Shown: positions 1,419-14,146 of the stretch, piece by piece
Layout of the letters: each line of letters starts with the position of its first letter
How positions within the stretch are numbered: the first letter of the stretch is position 1
DNA from: a virus
Lineage: Duplodnaviria; Heunggongvirae; Uroviricota; Caudoviricetes
IMG/VR virus record: IMGVR_UViG_2568526473_000003
DNA: 49,798 nt
Direction: 5' to 3' (one strand)
Program-made: the position numbers and the translations under genes
Notes under the pieces: generated by a model
What the model saw: only the letters and a program-made list of their open reading frames with translations
Database searches by the model: none
Told to the model about the DNA's origin: nothing

Positions 1419-2489
1419 TTATTTGATTTCAATTTTGTCCCACTCCCTGCCTCTGTCATCACGATACTGTGATGCCATGGTGTCCGACTTATGCCCGAGA
1501 AGATGTTGAGCAAACTTATCGCTTATCTGCTTCTCATAGAGTCTTGCAGACAAACTGCGCAACTCGTGAAAGGTAGGCGGATCCCCTTCGAAGGAAAGAC
1601 CTGATGCTTTTCGTGCGCGCATAAAATACCTTGATACTGTGCCGGATGAAAGCGGTTCACGACGAGTAGATGCAATTATGGTTTCTCCGCCAAGAATCTC
1701 TTTGCATTTATCAAGTGTTTCCTTCATTGATATCCCGAGAGCATCAACATGCAATGTTGTAGGGATGGCAATTTTTACGCCTGTTTTGCTTTGTTCGACA
1801 TAAAGATATCCATCTACGATATCAGACCACTTCATTTCGCATAAATCACCAACTCGCTGCCCGGTAACAACAGCCAGTTCCATTGCAAGTCTGAGCCAAC
1901 ATGGTGATGATTCTGCTGCTTGATAAATTTTCAGGTATTCGTCAGCCGTAAGTCTTGATCTCCTTACCTCTGATTTTGCTGCGCGAGTGGCAGCGACCGG
2001 GTTTGTTGTTATATGGCCTTCAGCTATTGCCTCTCGGAATGCATCGCTCAGTGTTGATCTGATTAACTTGGCTGACGCCGCCTTGCCCTCGTCTATGTAT
2101 CCATTGAGCATTGCCGCAATTTCTTTTGTGGTGATGTCTTCAAGTGGAGCATCAGGCAGCCCCCTCCTTATTGCTTTAATTTTGCTCATGTAATTTATGA
2201 GTGTCTTCTGCTTGATTCCTCTGCTGGCGAGGATTTTTTCGTAGCGATCAAGCCATGAATGTAACGTAACAGAATTATCACTGTTGATTCTCGCTGTCAG
2301 AGGCTTGTGTTTGTGTCCTGAAAATAACTCAATATTGGCCTGTATTGCTTCAGTGATTGCTATCCTCCTGTCTCGGCCTAAACCAAACTCTTTACCCGTC
2401 CTTGGGTCCCTGTAGCAGTAATATCCATTGTTTCTTATATAAAGGTTAGGGGGTAAATCCCGGCGCTCATGACTTCGCCTTCTTCCCAT
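1419..2489 (-). CDS. int: Lambda-type integrase (tyrosine recombinase), 356 aa
   Basis: Translation MGRRRSHERRDLPPNLYIRNNGYYCYRDPRTGKEFGLG... matches lambda Int; position next to attL. Confidence 0.95.
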   Translation of the reverse strand: MGRRRSHERRDLPPNLYIRNNGYYCYRDPRTGKEFGLGRDRRIAITEAIQANIELFSGHKHKPLTARINSDNSVTLHSWLDRYEKILASRGIKQKTLINYMSKIKAIRRGLPDAPLEDITTKEIAAMLNGYIDEGKAASAKLIRSTLSDAFREAIAEGHITTNPVAATRAAKSEVRRSRLTADEYLKIYQAAESSPCWLRLAMELAVVTGQRVGDLCEMKWSDIVDGYLYVEQSKTGVKIAIPTTLHVDALGISMKETLDKCKEILGGETIIASTRREPLSSGTVSRYFMRARKASGLSFEGDPPTFHELRSLSARLYEKQISDKFAQHLLGHKSDTMASQYRDDRGREWDKIEIK

Positions 2490-2685: not shown

Positions 2686-3134
2686 CGCAAAGTCTCCGCA
2701 ATTACACGCAAGAAAAAGCCGCCATCAGGCGGCTTGGTGTTCTTTCAGTTCTTCAATTCGAATATTGGTTATGTCTGCATGTGCTATCTGCGCCCATATC
2801 ATCCAGTGGTCATAGCAGTCATTGATGTTCTCTGCTTCGATAACTCTGTTGAATGGTTCTCCATTCCATTCACCTGTGACTCGGAAGTGCATTTATCATC
2901 TCCATAAAACAAAACCCGCCGTAGCGAGTTCAGATAAAAGAAATCCTCGTCAGTGCGAGGATGCTGTTCATTGCTGCTATACACTTTTTTGCTCTCAACG
3001 TAAGCGGTAGCTCATTCTGTTGGGTTGGTGCAGTTGCTTTTAGGAAATGCTATTTACCCCTTAAACGTCGGCTGAAAGAGCTAAAATCCATGCAAAAAAT
3101 TTACGCAATTTTGTGTATTATTGTGCAGTAAGTA

Positions 3135-3737
3135 ATGAGCTATTTTCTGCGCAAAAAATGGATGGTAAATTTGTCCGGGGCAGGAAAAATTTTATGGGCG
3201 CTAAACATGAAAAAAGATTCGTATCCTTATTTGATTTGCATGACAGTTTCAGGCCTGATCTTTATTTTCCTTTTCTTCTGGTGGCGGGCAGATATTTACA
3301 GGGTCACGTTTCTTAATCAGAGTATATCCCACTATTACATTCTGTTTAGCATGGGAATAGCTTTTCTGTTATCTCTGTTTTGGGTTAAGAAGGGGATAGT
3401 AAAACAAAGCGGCTGGAAGAGTCTGTCAGCATACCTTAAGGTTTATGCAGGGATGTGCATATTTGCTGGATTTTTTCTGATTATACCCCTTACAACACTA
3501 ACTTATTTTTTGCCTGGAGAGACATCGTCTTATGTTGCACCGTATCGGTATACTTCCGGTAGTTCAAAAAGTTGTTCTGGAGCTGAGGTGGATGACCCCG
3601 ATCTACATGAGAATATTCGCATTTGCTATCCGTATGGCAATTATGAGTACGATAATATTATCTATGTTGAAAAGAAAATTAATACATTAGGTGCGGTAGT
3701 AACATATGCACAGACCGCGCGTGATGATACTGAATGA
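3135..3737 (+). CDS. Hypothetical membrane protein (about 3 TM helices plus Cys-containing C-terminal domain); AT-rich moron antisense to the pL operon; start uncertain (3135, 3162 or 3204)
   Basis: 200-aa ORF with hydrophobic segments (LICMTVSGLIFIFLFFWW, YYILFSMGIAFLLSLFWV, VYAGMCIFAGFFLIIPLTTL); low GC; occupies the slot of lambda ea8.5/ea22 but on the opposite strand. Confidence 0.5.
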   Translation: MSYFLRKKWMVNLSGAGKILWALNMKKDSYPYLICMTVSGLIFIFLFFWWRADIYRVTFLNQSISHYYILFSMGIAFLLSLFWVKKGIVKQSGWKSLSAYLKVYAGMCIFAGFFLIIPLTTLTYFLPGETSSYVAPYRYTSGSSKSCSGAEVDDPDLHENIRICYPYGNYEYDNIIYVEKKINTLGAVVTYAQTARDDTE

Positions 3738-3772
3738 GATAGTATATAGCGGGCAAGTTTTAGTTAATTTAT

Positions 3773-3794
3773 CGAGGTAATATAATTTACCTCG
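3773..3794 (+). terminator. Perfect hairpin (cgaggtaa-tataat-ttacctcg) downstream of the plus-strand membrane-protein gene
   Basis: 8-bp perfect inverted repeat with 6-nt loop 36 nt after the stop at 3737, followed by a T-rich run. Confidence 0.4.
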
Positions 3795-3947
3795 ACTCGT
3801 TTATTCTGGTATTAATATTTCGCTTTACGATCGATTTTTATCTGATGATATCATTCGGTTTTCATATACTGACTTACTGTCTTTTCTCCGTTAGCGATTT
3901 TCTCCTGCTCAGCGATGATTTTATCTTTGGCTTCTAGTTAATTTCGC

Positions 3948-4169
3948 TCACTTCGAACCTCTCTGTTTACTGATAAGTTCCAGATCCTCCTGGCAACTTG
4001 CACAAGTCCGACAACCCTGAACGGCCAGGCGTCTTCGCTCATCTATGGGATCGCCACACTCACAACAATGAGTGGCAGATATAGCCTGGTGGTTCAGGCG
4101 GCGCATTTTTATTGCTGTGTTGCGCTGTAATTCTTCAATTTCTGATGCTGAATCAATGATGTCTGCCAT
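3948..4169 (-). CDS. TraR/DksA-family C4 zinc-finger protein, 73 aa
   Basis: Paired CxxC motifs (CCEC ... CRTCASC) in a small acidic protein; typical phage TraR-like fold. Confidence 0.65.
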   Translation of the reverse strand: MADIIDSASEIEELQRNTAIKMRRLNHQAISATHCCECGDPIDERRRLAVQGCRTCASCQEDLELISKQRGSK

Positions 4170-7610: not shown

Positions 7611-8081
7611 CTAATAAAACACCCAATTTTCTGTTTCTTGGTTGTGTCCAAAGTTATATTCAATATCTGGTATTGATGTATCAATATTCTTCATCCCATC
7701 AACAAGAGTTGATACAACAGCCAAATCTTGTTTGATTCTCATTAAATGGTACTTCTTCCGGCGCAATAAACTTTCAATGGCAAGTTTCTTCGTCGGGAAT
7801 GCAAAAGATCTTTCGGCATTTTTTGCTACTTTCTTAATTGCATATCTATTTCTCCTTTGTTTCCATTCCTGTAACCACTGATTTGGTGCTGGTTTAAAAT
7901 TAACAATCCAATGCGCAGGAACCAACCATGCATAATGATCTGTCTGATGAAAAGCTATATATTGAAGTGCGAATATTTTGATTCCATCTTCTTCAACTGT
8001 CGCTTGGAATCTCCAGAAAACAGGCATTCCATCATGTTCAGTTTCTGATTCAGGAAAAGGTACGCTCCATGATTTTGTCAT
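7611..8081 (-). CDS. Hypothetical 156-aa protein inserted between ral and ea10 (pL-operon moron, AT-rich)
   Basis: Intact ORF co-oriented with the pL operon; no lambda counterpart at this position as I recall it; AT-rich relative to flanking lambda genes. Confidence 0.6.
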   Translation of the reverse strand: MTKSWSVPFPESETEHDGMPVFWRFQATVEEDGIKIFALQYIAFHQTDHYAWLVPAHWIVNFKPAPNQWLQEWKQRRNRYAIKKVAKNAERSFAFPTKKLAIESLLRRKKYHLMRIKQDLAVVSTLVDGMKNIDTSIPDIEYNFGHNQETENWVFY

Positions 8082-8146: not shown

Positions 8147-8347
8147 TCAGGCAGCCTTGTTATTCTGTTTACCAAGTTCTCTGGCAATCATTTCCGTCGT
8201 TCGAATTGCCCATTTATCGACATATTTCCCATCTTCCATCACAGGAAACATTTCTTCAGGCTTAACCATGCATTCCGATTGCAGCTTGCATCCATTGCAT
8301 CGTTTGAATTGTCCACACCATTGATTTTTATCAATAGTCGTAGTCAT
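8147..8347 (-). CDS. ral: Ral (restriction alleviation), 66 aa
   Basis: Translation MTTTIDKNQWCGQFKRCNGCKLQSECMVKPEEMFPVMEDGKYVDKWAIRTTEMIARELGKQNNKAA matches lambda Ral. Confidence 0.9.
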   Translation of the reverse strand: MTTTIDKNQWCGQFKRCNGCKLQSECMVKPEEMFPVMEDGKYVDKWAIRTTEMIARELGKQNNKAA

Positions 8348-8425
8348 ACGGATAGTCCTGGTATTGTTCCATCACATCCTGCGGATGCTCTTCGAACTCT
8401 TCAAATTCTTCTTCCATATCTCACC

Positions 8426-8752
8426 TCAAATAAGTGGTTTGCTGCCTAATTTCATTTTCTGTCGACCAACACAAGTCACACCCATTTCACTGCGTGGCTT
8501 GCTGTACCATGTGCGCTGATTCTTGCGCTCAATACGCTGCAGGTTGCTTTCAATCTGTTCGTGGTATTCAGCCAGCACCGTAAGGTCTATCGGATTCAGT
8601 GCGCTTTCTACTCGTGATTTCGGTTTGCGATTCAGCGAGAGAATAGGGCGGTTAACTGGCTTTGCGCTTACCCCAACCAACAGGGGATTTGCTGCTTTCC
8701 ATTGAGCCTGTTTCTCTGCGCGACGTTCGCGGCGGCGTGTTTGTGCATCCAT
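8426..8752 (-). CDS. N: Antiterminator N, 108 aa from the MDAQTRRRERR start
   Basis: Translation MDAQTRRRERRAEKQAQWKAANPLLVGVSAKPVNRPILSLNRKPKSRVESALNPIDLTVLAEYHEQIESNLQRIERKNQRTWYSKP... matches lambda N (divergent extreme C-terminus). Confidence 0.9.
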   Translation of the reverse strand: MDAQTRRRERRAEKQAQWKAANPLLVGVSAKPVNRPILSLNRKPKSRVESALNPIDLTVLAEYHEQIESNLQRIERKNQRTWYSKPRSEMGVTCVGRQKMKLGSKPLI

Positions 8753-8980: not shown

Positions 8981-9043
8981 AGTATCACCGCCAGTGGTAT
9001 TTATGTCAACACCGCCAGAGATAATTTATCACCGCAGATGGTT
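8981..9043 (-). promoter_or_regulatory. pL promoter with operators OL1 (8983-8999), OL2 (9007-9023) and OL3 (9027-9043)
   Basis: Minus strand reads TTGACATAAATACCACTGGCGGTGATACT; the three 17-bp operators match lambda OL1-3. Confidence 0.9.
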
Positions 9044-9194
9044 ATCTGTATGTTTTTTATATAGATTTATTTTTTGCAGGGTTGTGTGGATTGGGAAGGT
9101 GATCGAGAGATATGAATTGCGATGTTTAGCGAGTTGTATCTATTAATTTTAAAATAAATACAATTGGTTATGTGTTTTTTGGGGCGTTAGGCAA

Positions 9195-9218
9195 AGAAAA
9201 CCCGGCGCAGATGCCGGG
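9195..9218 (-). terminator. Rho-independent terminator after the cI-orf301 transcription unit
   Basis: Hairpin cccggc-gcagat-gccggg followed on the minus strand by a T-run; same position as the terminator after rexB in lambda. Confidence 0.6.
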
Positions 9219-9230
9219 CTGTGGTGGAGA

Positions 9231-10136
9231 TCAATGCTTATTTGGGAGTGCTGGTTTTTTTATCGACTCTAATAGCTCGGAGGCGTTACTAATCTTTTTG
9301 TTCCCAAGGTAATTTGGCAGTTTTTCCATTGCGTAATTATCGTGTAGCCATTTTCTGAACACGCCAAGTGCCTCAATAGGATAAATCCAAGCTGTTATAT
9401 GCTTATTTGCAGCTGACTGCCTGTAATTTTCGGGGAATAGATGTGGGTACTGCACCCTTTCCCCGAATTTCTCAGATAGCCCATTAGCTGTCCAATACTT
9501 TCCCCAGTGAATTCCAACACTTCCATCCAAAGATGTGGTGTCATCCATTGGGAATCCTCCTCCGATCAGGTTCATGGCAATGTCAGCTATCTCTCTGAAT
9601 ACTGCAAAATGAGTTGTCGGTATCTGATCGTTTAGCTTAATCCTTGCTCTATAGTTCTCGAATGAGATATCTATTGAAGCATTTGGGTTGTAATTTGACT
9701 TTTCATAAATCATTCGCTTAAGCGTGTACTCAGCCAAGCGAACAAAATTACCTATTGCGACTGACCTATCAAAATTGGTGGCATCTAGAGCGTAGTAACG
9801 GAGGATAGCCATGCAAACATAGTCAGGATAAGCATGAGTTTCCACGTTTGAGCTATTTAAAACGCGAGTGTATAGCTTTTCGACGTTATGAAACCCTTTC
9901 TCAGCTAAATACGCAGCTACTTTTTGACCTCTGGGTTTGTTTTTCTCTGTGTTCCAGTTTGATGTGAACACCCTCAGTGGCGTGTCATCAATGCCGCATA
10001 ACTTTGCGAGACCGTAGAGAGTTAGGTAAGGAGTTCCATCATTGAGAACGCCCATAGGAATATCATCAGAAACAACCTCTACTACAGGGAAAAGCTGCAT
10101 TTGATGCAGGGATTCGCTATTGCTGTTAATCGACAT
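9231..10136 (-). CDS. Hypothetical 301-aa protein occupying the rexAB slot downstream of cI (candidate lysogen-expressed exclusion/abortive-infection protein)
   Basis: Intact ORF 86 nt downstream of the cI stop, co-oriented with cI; AT-rich; does not resemble RexA or RexB; no recognised domain. Confidence 0.6.
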   Translation of the reverse strand: MSINSNSESLHQMQLFPVVEVVSDDIPMGVLNDGTPYLTLYGLAKLCGIDDTPLRVFTSNWNTEKNKPRGQKVAAYLAEKGFHNVEKLYTRVLNSSNVETHAYPDYVCMAILRYYALDATNFDRSVAIGNFVRLAEYTLKRMIYEKSNYNPNASIDISFENYRARIKLNDQIPTTHFAVFREIADIAMNLIGGGFPMDDTTSLDGSVGIHWGKYWTANGLSEKFGERVQYPHLFPENYRQSAANKHITAWIYPIEALGVFRKWLHDNYAMEKLPNYLGNKKISNASELLESIKKPALPNKH

Positions 10137-10222
10137 ATCTTAATGATTTCCTTATTTTTATTGTAGGGATCTGCTTTTTTATTTCCTACATCTAGATGCG
10201 TATAAAGTCTCTTGCTGCGGAC

Positions 10223-10939
<717 letters not shown>

Positions 10940-11681: not shown

Positions 11682-11828
11682 ATGACAAAACAACTCAGTC
11701 CTTACCAGGACAAAATTCACAAACACATACTACGTGATCGCTTCCTGTCCAGCTTCAAGCAGCCTGGTCGATTCCGGGCTGAGTTGGAAAAGGTGAAGCT
11801 GATGCAGAAGGAGAAAGGTCATGAGTAA
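11682..11828 (+). CDS. Small hypothetical protein (48 aa) between cII and the replication gene
   Basis: [51 protein letters not shown] preceded by a CAGGAG ribosome-binding site 6 nt upstream; not in the ORF track because under 60 aa. Confidence 0.4.
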
Positions 11829-12720
11829 CATATCTAATCTAGCCGAAGCCAGAGAGGCCAGAAGGCTACAACAACCGCATCAAAGCAGCGGTAAGGGGTA
11901 TGCCTTGCTGCACCGTAAAATTATGGATGTGCCGTTTTACAAGGACGCAGAAGCAGCACATCTGTGGGTTCACTTAATCCTCAAAGCAAAGCATACGCCT
12001 GAGTATGTAATGACTGACGCAGGAGAAATTCTGGTAGGCAGAGGTAAGCTACTTGGCGGTAGAAACTCTCTGGCGTTTGAAACAGGACTCAAACCAGATC
12101 GCGTTCAGTACCTGCTTAGAAAGTTCAAAAAACTCGGCATGATTGACTGGGTTTCACACGGTAAATTCTCAGTTTTCTCGGTAGAGAAATATGACGATTA
12201 TCAGTCAAATTTTGTACCAGCAGATTACCAGCAAATTACCACCTCAAAGCCAGCAATACCAATGCCTGTAAGCAATACTGTACCAGCAGATTACCAGCAA
12301 ATTACCACAGATAAAGAATATAATAATATTATCTCTAATACTGACGTATTAGAGAGTGCCACAGCAGACAAAAAGTCTGACAAGAAAAAACCTTCCGTTA
12401 GCTGTCAGGATGTTGTCGATGCTTACCACGAAATCCTTCCTGAAGCGCCAAGAATCCGCGCACTGAATGACAAGCGTAAAAACCAGATCCGAACGTTCTG
12501 GCGCAAAGCCGGAGTGATAACCCGCCAGCTTGACGGGCATGGGTTCTCGATGCAGGACTGGAGAAATTATTTGAGCTACGTAGGCGAAAATTGCCGATGG
12601 ATGTTCGAAGAACGCCCAAACCATCAACGCGGAACCGTCTGGCACAAAAAGGGATTTGATTTCCTGCTTAACGACAATACCTACCTGAAAGTTCGTGAGG
12701 GTGAACACGATGACCGATAA
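11821..12720 (+). CDS. Replication initiator (O-like, non-lambda allele) containing origin iterons, 299 aa
   Basis: Position after cII; internal direct DNA repeats encode duplicated [10 protein letters not shown] peptide segments, the hallmark of ori-within-O genes. Confidence 0.7.
12214..12308. repeat. Origin iterons: two 29-bp direct repeats (gtaccagcagattaccagcaaattaccac) at 12214-12242 and 12280-12308, each with ATTACC sub-repeats
   Basis: Exact 29-bp direct repeat read from the sequence, inside the initiator gene. Confidence 0.7.
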
Positions 12721-14146
12721 TTTTTATGCGCCGCCCCATAGCATCGAGGCAGAGCAGGCGGTGATTGGTGGATTGCTTCTGGATGATGACAGCAGTGAGC
12801 GCGTCCAGAAAGTTCTGGCGATGCTGAAGCCTGATTCATTTTACGGCCGACCACACAAAATCCTTTTCGAAGAAATAACCAGAATGCACCGGGAGCAAAA
12901 GCCAGTAGATGGCCTGACGCTTTTCGATGAACTGGAGCGTAAATCGTTAACGGCGTCTGTTGGCGGTTTTGCTTATATCGCTGAGATCGCAAAGAACACG
13001 CCAAGCGCAGCAAACATCGTTGCCTATGCAATGCAGGTTCGTGAAACCGCAATGGAACGCTACGCCATCAACCGCATGACTGAAGCGACGGAATTGCTCT
13101 ATTCCCGCAACGGAATGACTGCAACGCAGAAGTACGAAGCTATTCAGGCGATTTTCACGCAACTGACAGACCATGCAAAAACCGGATCGCGTCGCGGCCT
13201 TCGCTCATTTGGTGAGGTCATGGAAAACTGGGTTAGCGACCTTGAGAAGCGATTTGACCCGTCAGGAGAACAACGAGGAATGAGCACAGGGATCCCATCG
13301 CTGGACAGGATGCTGTCACCGAAAGGTCTGGTGAAAGGCTCTCTGTTTGTCATTGGCGCTCGCCCTAAGATGGGGAAAACGACGCTATACAGCCAGATGG
13401 CAATCAACTGCGCAGTTCATGAGAAAAAGCCTGCTCTGATGTTCAGCCTTGAAATGCCAGGTGACCAGATACTGGAAAAACTGGTGGGACAGAAGTCAGG
13501 TGTTAACCCGAATATTTTTTACCTTCCGGCGACAAATGACGCTGATGACGGCTATCAGGGTGATTACGATGGTGACTTCAACAGGGCGATCGAAACAGCT
13601 AATCGTTTGAGTGAAATCGACCTGCTTTACATCGACGACACGCCGGGATTATCTCTGGCTCAAATCGTCAGCGAAAGCCGTCGAATCAAGCGAGAAAAAG
13701 GATGCGTTGGCATGATTCTGGTCGATTACCTGACACTAATGACTGCTGAGAAGGCCGATCGCAACGACCTTGCTTACGGCATGATCACCAAAGGACTGAA
13801 GAACCTTGCCAAAGAGCTTGATTGCGTTGTTGTGCTTCTGACACAGCTTAACCGCGCATTGGAAAGCCGAACCAATAAACGCCCATTACCAAGTGACTCG
13901 CGAGATACAGGGCAGATTGAACAGGATTGCGATTATTGGGTCGGGATCCATCGTGAAGGCGCTTTTGATGACAGTGTTCCACCTGGTGAAACTGAACTAA
14001 TCCTTCGTCTCAATCGTCATGGCAATACCGGCACGGTGTATTGCATTCAGGCAAATGGCGCTATTTATGACACAGACCAACAGTCTGCTGAAATGCGCCG
14101 CCGTGAGCGCGAGGAACCGCAATCCAAGAAGAAAGGAGGATTCTGA
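12710..14146 (+). CDS. Replicative DNA helicase (DnaB family), about 478 aa
   Basis: N-terminal DnaB motifs (PPHSIEAEQAVIGGLLLDD) and Walker A (GARPKMGKTT); replaces lambda P. Confidence 0.85.
   Translation: MTDNFYAPPHSIEAEQAVIGGLLLDDDSSERVQKVLAMLKPDSFYGRPHKILFEEITRMHREQKPVDGLTLFDELERKSLTASVGGFAYIAEIAKNTPSAANIVAYAMQVRETAMERYAINRMTEATELLYSRNGMTATQKYEAIQAIFTQLTDHAKTGSRRGLRSFGEVMENWVSDLEKRFDPSGEQRGMSTGIPSLDRMLSPKGLVKGSLFVIGARPKMGKTTLYSQMAINCAVHEKKPALMFSLEMPGDQILEKLVGQKSGVNPNIFYLPATNDADDGYQGDYDGDFNRAIETANRLSEIDLLYIDDTPGLSLAQIVSESRRIKREKGCVGMILVDYLTLMTAEKADRNDLAYGMITKGLKNLAKELDCVVVLLTQLNRALESRTNKRPLPSDSRDTGQIEQDCDYWVGIHREGAFDDSVPPGETELILRLNRHGNTGTVYCIQANGAIYDTDQQSAEMRRREREEPQSKKKGGF

What the first reader, a model, noticed from the sequence alone, without database searches (positions are those of the whole stretch)
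9231..10136. Uncharacterised 301-aa gene replaces rexAB directly downstream of cI
In lambda the slot between cI and the terminator before pL holds the rexA-rexB exclusion system, co-transcribed with cI in lysogens. Here the slot holds one AT-rich 301-aa ORF with no resemblance to RexA or RexB, co-oriented with cI (86-nt gap) and followed by a terminator hairpin at 9195-9218. The flanking oL/pL and cI sequences are lambda-like, so this is a cassette swap at a defence-gene hotspot. A single lysogen-expressed gene here is most plausibly a superinfection-exclusion or abortive-infection determinant; BstA-type proteins of similar size are reported at this position, but I cannot confirm homology from the sequence.
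Basis: partly seen in the sequence, partly recalled or inferred. Interest (0 to 1): 0.82.

Follow-up and report, generated by a model that had tools for sequence, protein, structure and literature searches.

The report
Known BstA phage-defence gene after cI
The 301-aa gene that replaces rexAB behind the lambda-type repressor is a BstA abortive-infection defence gene.

Summary
A 301-aa ORF (9231-10136, minus strand) lies 86 nt downstream of a cI that is 235/237 identical to lambda cI, and a terminator hairpin follows it. Homology to lambda stops exactly at the cI stop codon and resumes at that terminator, so a ~1 kb cassette replaces rexAB.

The gene is not uncharacterised. It matches the BstA profiles over its full length (PADLOC E 1.3e-105; PHROG 6287 E 6e-133). 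It is 100% identical to a phage CL707 ORF deposited in 2007 and 42.5% identical to BstA of Salmonella phage BTP1. Its locus carries the published cloning and sequencing primers for bstA-Ec (E. coli NCTC10963), which Owen et al. 2021 showed to confer phage defence with a cognate self-immunity element (aba). A 99.8%-identical locus is in that paper's own homolog table.

One added detail may be new. Across 64 distinct bstA start regions (28 clusters), a short direct repeat straddles the start codon at 56-57 bp spacing, and its sequence differs between clades. This is the architecture of the mapped 63-bp BTP1 aba. In the window the copies are ATCCCTACA (10170-10162) and ATCCCTGCA (10113-10105).

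Verdict: already known; low interest apart from the aba architecture.

The parts
9231..10136 (-). bstA coding sequence (301 aa): BstA-family abortive-infection protein, bstA-Ec type
   Evidence: ORF. PADLOC BstA E 1.3e-105 covering 8-286, and PHROG 6287 E 6e-133 covering 5-301. 100% identical to CL707 CL70704 and 42.5% to BstA-BTP1. It keeps all 45 invariant columns of a 23-sequence family alignment. PGAP and UniRef name it 'BstA C-terminal domain-containing protein'.
10100..10178 (-). Candidate aba (anti-BstA self-immunity DNA element): two 22-nt direct-repeat copies, 10178-10157 and 10121-10100, 57 bp apart, straddling the bstA start codon (10136)
   Evidence: the repeat finder family D1: 16/22 identical, spacing 57. 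The position and spacing match the family-wide repeat and the mapped BTP1 aba with its essential terminal CCCGCC repeats. Function here is inferred, not shown.
10162..10170 (-). Repeat core, upstream copy ATCCCTACA (-34..-26 relative to the ATG), non-coding; contains a GATC site
10105..10113 (-). Repeat core, downstream copy ATCCCTGCA (nt 24-32 of the coding sequence; codons for E-S-L-H of the disordered N-terminal tail)
   Evidence: residues 1-12 have pLDDT below 50
10137..10222 (-). 86-nt cI-bstA spacer with a conserved ribosome-binding stretch TAAGGAAATCA (10154-10144); no sigma-70-like promoter on this strand
   Evidence: Published bstA-Ec forward primer NW_761 equals 10222-10199 exactly.
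9189..9220 (-). Rho-independent terminator (equivalent to lambda Timm) that ends the cI-bstA unit; left boundary of the swapped cassette
   Evidence: Stem 9220-9199 plus T-rich tail. Annotated as Timm in the CL707 record. Homology to lambda resumes here.
10223..10936 (-). cI repressor, lambda immunity type (235/237 aa identical to lambda cI); its stop codon is the right boundary of the cassette
8981..9071 (-). pL promoter (TTGACA-17-GATACT, 9009-8981) with the oL1-oL3 operators, matching lambda with a single mismatch downstream of the -10

Best explanation
The gene is bstA, the prophage-encoded abortive-infection defence gene described by Owen et al. 2021. This copy is the E. coli (bstA-Ec) allele, sitting in the rexAB slot of a lambda-immunity prophage.

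Inferred from position: it is transcribed with cI from pRM in the lysogen and terminated at the shared Timm hairpin.

Taken from the published work on BstA-BTP1, -Ec and -Kp: the protein has an N-terminal DNA-binding KilA-N-like domain and a BstA-specific C-terminal domain. It colocalises with the replicating DNA of a superinfecting phage and blocks that replication. The infected cell still lyses but releases no progeny, which protects the population.

Inferred for this locus: when the prophage itself is induced, it escapes its own BstA through aba, a short DNA element at the 5' end of the locus. My comparison maps the likely aba to about 79 bp (10178-10100), built from two direct-repeat copies (core ATCCCTnCA) 57 bp apart on either side of the start codon. 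The repeat sequence differs between bstA clades, and this could be what makes self-immunity cognate.
For: Family membership:
- Full-length profile hits to BstA: PADLOC E 1.3e-105 and PHROG 6287 'BstA abortive infection system, replication inhibitor' E 6e-133.
- 42.5% identity over 299 aa to BstA-BTP1.
- All invariant family residues are kept.
- All 115 full-length or near-full-length homologs found, of 116 hits, carry PF26567.

Identity with the tested allele:
- Two published NCTC10963 primers match the window exactly, at 10222-10199 and 10017-10040.
- Locus L005 carries the third primer, encodes the identical protein and differs from the window at 6 of ~1060 aligned positions (5 substitutions and a 1-nt indel). 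One substitution falls inside the 22-nt upstream repeat copy (C>A at window 10173), outside the 9-nt core, and the two 9-nt repeat cores are identical.
- E. coli 2012C-4431, listed in the paper's Table S1, is 99.8% identical over window 9150-10250.

Published function: BstA-Ec confers defence against Salmonella phages and, more weakly, against coliphages. P22 carrying the bstA-Ec locus becomes immune only to BstA-Ec.

Anatomy: the gene is directly downstream of and co-oriented with the repressor. There is no promoter-like site in the gap, and a terminator follows.

aba architecture:
- In 64 distinct bstA start contexts, self-similarity between -38..-23 and the coding 5' end peaks sharply at a spacing of 57 (7.44/16 matches) and 56 (5.17). 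Other spacings give 3.3-5.0.
- At the level of 28 clusters, own-locus pairs score 8.18 and cross-locus pairs 5.33; 0 of 20000 permutations reach the observed value.
- The three types tested in the paper carry three different repeats at the same place: BTP1 CCCGCC (experimentally essential), the Ec type ATCCCTnCA, and a Kp-like locus TGGTCAyCA.
Against: - No experiment was done on this copy. Expression in the lysogen and the defence phenotype are carried over from a near-identical allele.
- I could not retrieve the NCTC10963 sequence itself.
- aba has been mapped only in BTP1. For bstA-Ec the paper shows only that it lies somewhere between the cI stop and the terminator.
- The window repeat is short (8/9 core, 16/22 extended), and the downstream copy is also constrained by coding.
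- In some loci (L013, L014, L024) the two copies share little beyond GATC.
- The CP53-type allele has a 94%-identical gene body but different repeats. This argues against a simple model in which the globular KilA-N-like domain alone reads the repeat.
Confidence: 0.9

Rival explanations
1. The gene is a BstA defence gene as above, but the direct repeats I mapped are not the aba determinant. Self-immunity would lie in another part of the locus, and the repeats would serve another role, such as translational or transcriptional control of bstA, or autoregulation.
For: - aba-Ec has only been localised to the whole locus.
- Several loci have poorly matching copies.
- The CP53-type allele changes the repeats without changing the DNA-binding domain.
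Against: - In BTP1 single-base changes in either repeat abolish immunity.
- The repeat position and the 56-57 bp spacing are conserved family-wide, while the sequence co-varies within loci.
- The three non-cross-immune loci have three different repeats.
Confidence: 0.3
2. The protein's main role is not phage defence. It could be a host-phenotype (virulence or anti-virulence) factor, as reported for its Salmonella homolog st313-td, or a KilA-N-type regulator or antirepressor of the prophage.
For: The BTP1 homolog is annotated st313-td and has been linked to virulence phenotypes. The N-terminal domain resembles DNA-binding winged-helix/APSES-type folds.
Against: Defence was shown directly, with stop-codon controls, for three homologs only about 40-48% identical to one another, including the Ec allele. 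Homology covers both domains over the full length, not only the DNA-binding part.
Confidence: 0.05
3. The gene is an inactive remnant carried along with the immunity cassette.
For: [quoted passage not shown]
Against: The ORF is intact and full length with all invariant residues. The identical protein occurs on 645 contigs. Close relatives differ mostly at synonymous or conservative sites.
Confidence: 0.03

Closest known systems
BstA-Ec, the bstA locus of E. coli NCTC10963 (Owen et al. 2021, PMC8585504)
   Same: Three published primers for that locus match the window or a locus that differs from it at 6 of ~1060 aligned positions and encodes the identical protein. Its position directly after the prophage repressor is the same, as is its terminator. 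Its identity to BstA-BTP1 is about the same (41.7% published; 42.5% measured here).
   Different: I could not compare directly with the NCTC10963 record. The window differs from the primer-matching type by 1 nt upstream of repeat copy 1, one synonymous change and 3-4 changes in or after the terminator. The surrounding prophage backbone may differ, because the cassette occurs in several backbones.
BstA-BTP1 with its aba element (Salmonella phage BTP1; gene st313-td)
   Same: It has the same two-domain protein family, the same position after cI, a terminator, and a direct repeat straddling the start codon at 56-57 bp spacing.
   Different: Only 42.5% amino-acid identity. The repeat is CCCGCC at -28/+29 rather than ATCCCTnCA at -34/+24. 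The published data show no cross-immunity between the two types.
Phage CL707 ORF CL70704 (EF120459.1, wild lambda-immunity phage, deposited 2007)
   Same: 100% identical protein and 99.5% identical DNA. The cI, oL/oR, pL and Timm layout is the same.
   Different: It is annotated only as 'hypothetical protein', and the record is a 5-kb immunity-region fragment.
Lambda RexA/RexB
   Same: It occupies the same slot between cI and Timm, is presumably co-transcribed with cI, and is also an abortive-infection type of prophage defence.
   Different: There is no sequence relationship. RexAB is two proteins acting through membrane depolarisation. BstA is one DNA-associated protein that blocks phage DNA replication.

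Membership tests
BstA abortive-infection family | Full-length sequence homology to BstA profiles and to BstA-BTP1 | tested here: met
   PADLOC BstA E 1.3e-105 (residues 8-286 of 301); PHROG 6287 E 6e-133 (5-301); 42.5% identity to BstA-BTP1 over 299 aa; all 45 invariant alignment columns kept.
BstA abortive-infection family | BstA-specific C-terminal domain (PF26567) | tested here: met
   115 of the 116 homologs carry precomputed PF26567; the exception is a 174-aa fragment. The exact protein is named 'BstA(-like) C-terminal domain-containing protein' by UniRef and PGAP. The local Pfam copy gave no hit, apparently because it lacks this model.
BstA abortive-infection family | N-terminal KilA-N(-like) DNA-binding domain | tested here: inconclusive
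BstA abortive-infection family | Located directly downstream of, and co-oriented with, the prophage repressor, and followed by a Rho-independent terminator | tested here: met
   86 nt after cI on the same strand; terminator at 9220-9199; no promoter-like site in the gap.
BstA abortive-infection family | Cognate aba DNA element at the 5' end of the locus, with terminal direct repeats | tested here: met
   At the sequence level only. A 22-nt direct repeat (16/22 identical), 57 bp apart, straddles the ATG. The same architecture is seen family-wide and in the mapped BTP1 aba. Its function was not tested.
BstA abortive-infection family | Confers abortive-infection phage resistance; inhibits phage DNA replication | not testable with these tools
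   Published for BstA-Ec, -BTP1 and -Kp. The window locus matches the bstA-Ec primers.
RexAB exclusion system | Homology to RexA and RexB | tested here: not met
   No Rex model matched in PADLOC, and none in PHROGs. DNA homology to lambda is lost across the whole rexAB interval.

The most novel reading that the evidence does not exclude
The aba self-immunity element may not be peculiar to BTP1. It may be a family-wide bipartite DNA site: two copies of a clade-specific 8-16 nt motif, a fixed 56-57 bp apart, one in the non-coding leader and one in the codons for BstA's disordered N-terminal tail.

Because the site overlaps those codons, the DNA target and the tail are inherited as one roughly 100-bp module. 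That module is exchanged by recombination independently of the gene body: in the CP53-type allele the body is 94% identical but the module only 60%. This would generate new cognate specificities, and it predicts that the N-terminal tail, not the globular domain, reads the repeat. On this reading the window's aba would be 10178-10100, with ATCCCTnCA cores.
Probability: 0.45. Interest if true: 0.5.

Novelty: already known. Interest (0 to 1): 0.25.

Why it matters
As a gene call it matters little. It adds one more copy of a defence gene published in 2021, in a slot that paper already discussed, and defence-finder tools detect it.

Two points have some value. First, the wild lambda-immunity phage ORF deposited as 'hypothetical' in 2007 can now be named. 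Lambda-immunity prophages carrying it should abort infection by BstA-sensitive phages instead of showing the Rex phenotype.

Second, the comparison of 80 loci gives a concrete, testable map of the self-immunity element for the E. coli allele. It also suggests how cognate specificity is encoded and diversified, which the original paper left open.

Tried and rejected
- Pfam-A and NCBIfam scans gave no hit. This reflects the local library, not the protein, since its homologs carry PF26567.
- An ungapped search for the reverse bstA-Ec primer failed in the window because of a 1-nt indel. The primer was found in L005.
- The BstA-Kp forward primer has no exact match in the fetched loci. L004 matches its last 22 nt.
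- Degnan et al. 2007 is not in the held library.
- No later mechanistic BstA paper was found.
- I checked whether extra ATCCCTnCA sites mark other targets in the phage. There are 4 against 1.7 expected, and the two outside bstA are most likely chance.
- I considered a bstA-specific promoter in the gap; none is seen on the minus strand.
- The scripting machine was lost. The lambda comparison was therefore done with pairwise alignments, and exact G+C values were not computed.

Full report
**1. Observation**

The window holds an ATG-initiated 301-aa ORF at 9231-10136 on the minus strand. The cI gene lies at 10223-10936 on the same strand, leaving an 86-nt gap. A terminator-like hairpin follows the ORF: an 8-pair stem with 6 G-C pairs at 9220-9199, then a T-rich tail. 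The ORF has 39-45% G+C in 300-nt windows.

The window's cI is 235/237 identical to lambda cI. pL and oL1-oL3 match lambda with a single mismatch, just downstream of the pL -10 hexamer. DNA homology to lambda stops exactly at the cI stop codon and resumes at the terminator hairpin, lambda's Timm. A cassette of about 1.0 kb (about 9221-10222) therefore replaces the rexA-rexB interval.

**2. What the gene is**

- Pfam-A and NCBIfam gave no hit.
- The defence and phage libraries are unambiguous. PADLOC BstA scores E 1.3e-105 over residues 8-286. PHROG 6287, 'BstA abortive infection system, replication inhibitor', scores E 6e-133 over residues 5-301.
- tblastn against phage genomes gives 100% identity to ORF CL70704 of phage CL707. 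This is a wild lambda-immunity phage whose immunity region was deposited in 2007, with the ORF called 'hypothetical'.
- Identity to BstA (st313-td) of Salmonella phage BTP1, the founding member of the family, is 42.5% over 299 residues.
- 116 homologs were found. The 115 full-length or near-full-length ones carry the precomputed domain PF26567; a 174-aa fragment does not.
- The exact protein occurs on 645 contigs. UniRef and PGAP name it 'BstA(-like) C-terminal domain-containing protein'. The Pfam miss therefore reflects the local library.
- In a 23-sequence alignment spanning gamma-, beta- and alpha-proteobacterial homologs, the window protein keeps all 45 invariant positions.

**3. Relation to the published work**

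Owen et al. 2021 (PMC8585504) described BstA as a prophage-encoded abortive-infection protein. It is usually encoded directly downstream of the prophage repressor. It colocalises with infecting phage DNA and prevents its replication. They note that the site corresponds to lambda's rexAB and cite the 2007 study of wild lambda-immunity phages.

They tested three homologs: BTP1, K. pneumoniae Kp52.145 and E. coli NCTC10963 (BstA-Ec). The evidence that the window carries the bstA-Ec allele is:

- Forward primer NW_761/764 matches window 10222-10199 exactly, starting at the first base after the cI stop.
- Sequencing primer NW_790 matches window 10017-10040 exactly.
- The reverse primer differs from the window by one substitution and a 1-nt indel. 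It is present exactly in locus L005.
- L005 encodes the identical protein and differs from the window at 6 of about 1060 aligned positions: 5 substitutions and a 1-nt indel.
- The paper's Table S1 lists E. coli O178:H19 2012C-4431, CP024289 382841-383737. That locus is 99.8% identical to window 9150-10250 (hit H27).

The window gene is therefore, for practical purposes, the published bstA-Ec allele. I could not fetch the NCTC10963 record to show this directly.

**4. How it most likely works**

Shown in the literature for near-identical or homologous alleles:
- BstA-Ec expressed alone confers resistance to Salmonella phages and, more weakly, to coliphages.
- BstA acts by abortive infection and blocks phage DNA replication.
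- The bstA-encoding phage is immune to its own BstA through aba, a DNA element.
- Each locus has a cognate aba. P22 carrying the bstA-Ec locus is immune only to BstA-Ec.

Inferred here:
- The gene is co-transcribed with cI from pRM. It is on the same strand, 86 nt downstream, with no sigma-70-like site in the gap and a shared terminator.

**5. Added analysis: the aba architecture**

In BTP1, aba is a 63-bp segment made of 29 bp upstream plus the first 34 bp of bstA. Its terminal CCCGCC direct repeats are each essential. The main text of the paper does not map aba in the other homologs.

I fetched 80 bstA loci from viral contigs and put them in register on the start codon, which lies 27 or 29 codons before the conserved MGVLNDG motif. 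This gave 64 distinct start contexts. The results were:

- Similarity between positions -38..-23 and the sequence d bases downstream peaks sharply at d = 57 (7.44 of 16 matches) and d = 56 (5.17). Every other spacing from 40 to 75 gives 3.3-5.0.
- After collapsing to 28 clusters, own-locus pairs score 8.18 and cross-locus pairs 5.33. None of 20000 permutations reaches the observed value. Other spacings on the same loci score 4.4-5.6.
- The motif changes from clade to clade. Examples are CCCGCCA (BTP1 type), TGGTCAyCA (a Klebsiella locus), GGTGaACAGCT, GCAGCACCC, GGGCAnCA, GATCnCAG and ATCCCTnCA. The Klebsiella locus is 48% identical to BstA-BTP1, and its leader matches 22 nt of the BstA-Kp primer.

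In the window the copies are ATCCCTACA (10170-10162) and ATCCCTGCA (10113-10105). The repeat finder independently extends them to 22 nt, 16/22 identical, with spacing 57. The three locus types that the paper showed to be non-cross-immune thus carry three different repeats at the same position. This fits the idea that the repeats encode cognate specificity.

**6. Caveats on the aba reading**

- The repeat in any single locus is short, and the downstream copy is also under coding constraint.
- Some loci (L013, L014, L024) share little beyond GATC between their two copies.
- The CP53-type allele, present in many E. coli genomes, is 94% identical to the window over the gene body but only 60% over the -45..+55 module, and it has different repeats. 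If the globular N-terminal domain read the repeat, such a swap should break recognition.
- Either the disordered N-terminal tail contributes to recognition, or the repeats are not the whole story. The tail is encoded by the same module and changes with it. This cannot be settled computationally.

**7. Comparison and novelty**

What it works like and what it is coincide: a BstA-family member of the bstA-Ec type. Every sequence-level defining feature I could test was met. The exception is the KilA-N-like fold, which is only weakly supported. The phenotype cannot be tested here. The gene is unrelated to RexAB apart from the slot it occupies and the abortive-infection outcome.

The family-wide repeat architecture and the modular exchange of the 5' module are, as far as the held literature shows, not described. 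They are the only part with some novelty.

**8. Context noticed**

- The window is a lambdoid prophage or phage sharing about 97% identity with lambda, 434 and 2B8 over about half of its left 24 kb.
- It has an O-like initiator plus a DnaB-type helicase instead of lambda O/P.
- It has no sieB between ral and N.
- An extra 156-aa ORF of unknown function lies at 7611-8081.
- The same cI-bstA cassette also occurs in a different, ERF/P22-like backbone in E. coli CH4794. It therefore moves as an immunity-plus-defence unit.

Noticed in passing
L002 (E. coli CP53, NZ_CP033096.1) 3083-4140, versus window 9231-10225: A second E. coli bstA allele, present in many complete genomes, is 94% identical to the window over the 3' ~850 nt. 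It diverges abruptly from about codon 18 upstream, at window ~10083. The first ~50 nt of the coding sequence and the leader are only ~60% identical and carry a different repeat (GATCnCAG). The 5' module looks like a recombination unit of its own.
   Followed up: partly
window 10171-10168; loci L009-L036 at about -35 and +22 from the bstA ATG: In most enterobacterial bstA loci both repeat copies contain GATC, a Dam methylation site (GATCCCTACA, GATCGCAGGG, GATCCCAGGG). In the window only the upstream copy has it (AGATCC versus GAATCC). I do not know whether Dam methylation matters for aba.
   Followed up: no
L013, L014, L024 (IMG/VR contigs), -38..-23 versus +19..+34: In these loci the upstream copy (GATCGGGGTC) and the downstream copy (GATCCCTACA) match only in GATC. 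They may be hybrid modules, may tolerate a gapped match, or may count against the repeat model.
   Followed up: no
window 10095-10109 (-): A small hairpin, CTGCATCAAATGCAG followed by CTTTTCC, overlaps the downstream repeat copy inside the bstA coding region. The terminator scan flagged it. Related loci do not conserve it, so it is probably chance.
   Followed up: partly
window 7611-8081 (-), and 8347-8426: A 156-aa ORF (phrog_1636, unknown function, no PADLOC hit) sits between the Ea10/DUF2528-like gene and ral. Lambda's sieB, between ral and N, is absent. This is another variable accessory slot in the pL operon.
   Followed up: partly
window 11821-14146 (+): The replication module is an O-like initiator plus a DnaB-type replicative helicase, not lambda O/P. 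This may be relevant because BstA targets phage DNA replication and the prophage must escape it.
   Followed up: no
window 47290-48195 (-): An ORF matches transposase families (phrog_157, E 1e-93) near the right end of the window. It suggests an IS element in or next to the prophage.
   Followed up: no
L085 (E. coli CH4794, NZ_CM166349.1) 12081-13786: The same cI-bstA cassette (99.9% identical) sits in a different prophage backbone (ERF recombinase, anti-RecBCD, P22-like nin region) whose replication gene is split by an IS4-like element. The immunity-plus-defence cassette is mosaic and mobile between lambdoid backbones.
   Followed up: no
The local Pfam-A scan returned nothing for this protein, while 115 of its 116 homologs carry a precomputed PF26567 hit. 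A negative from the local Pfam copy should not be read as 'no Pfam family'.
   Followed up: yes
window 1758-1766 and 3446-3454 (-): Two further exact ATCCCTnCA sites lie outside the bstA locus (4 in the window against 1.7 expected; 9 of 100 shuffles reach 4). They are probably chance.
   Followed up: partly
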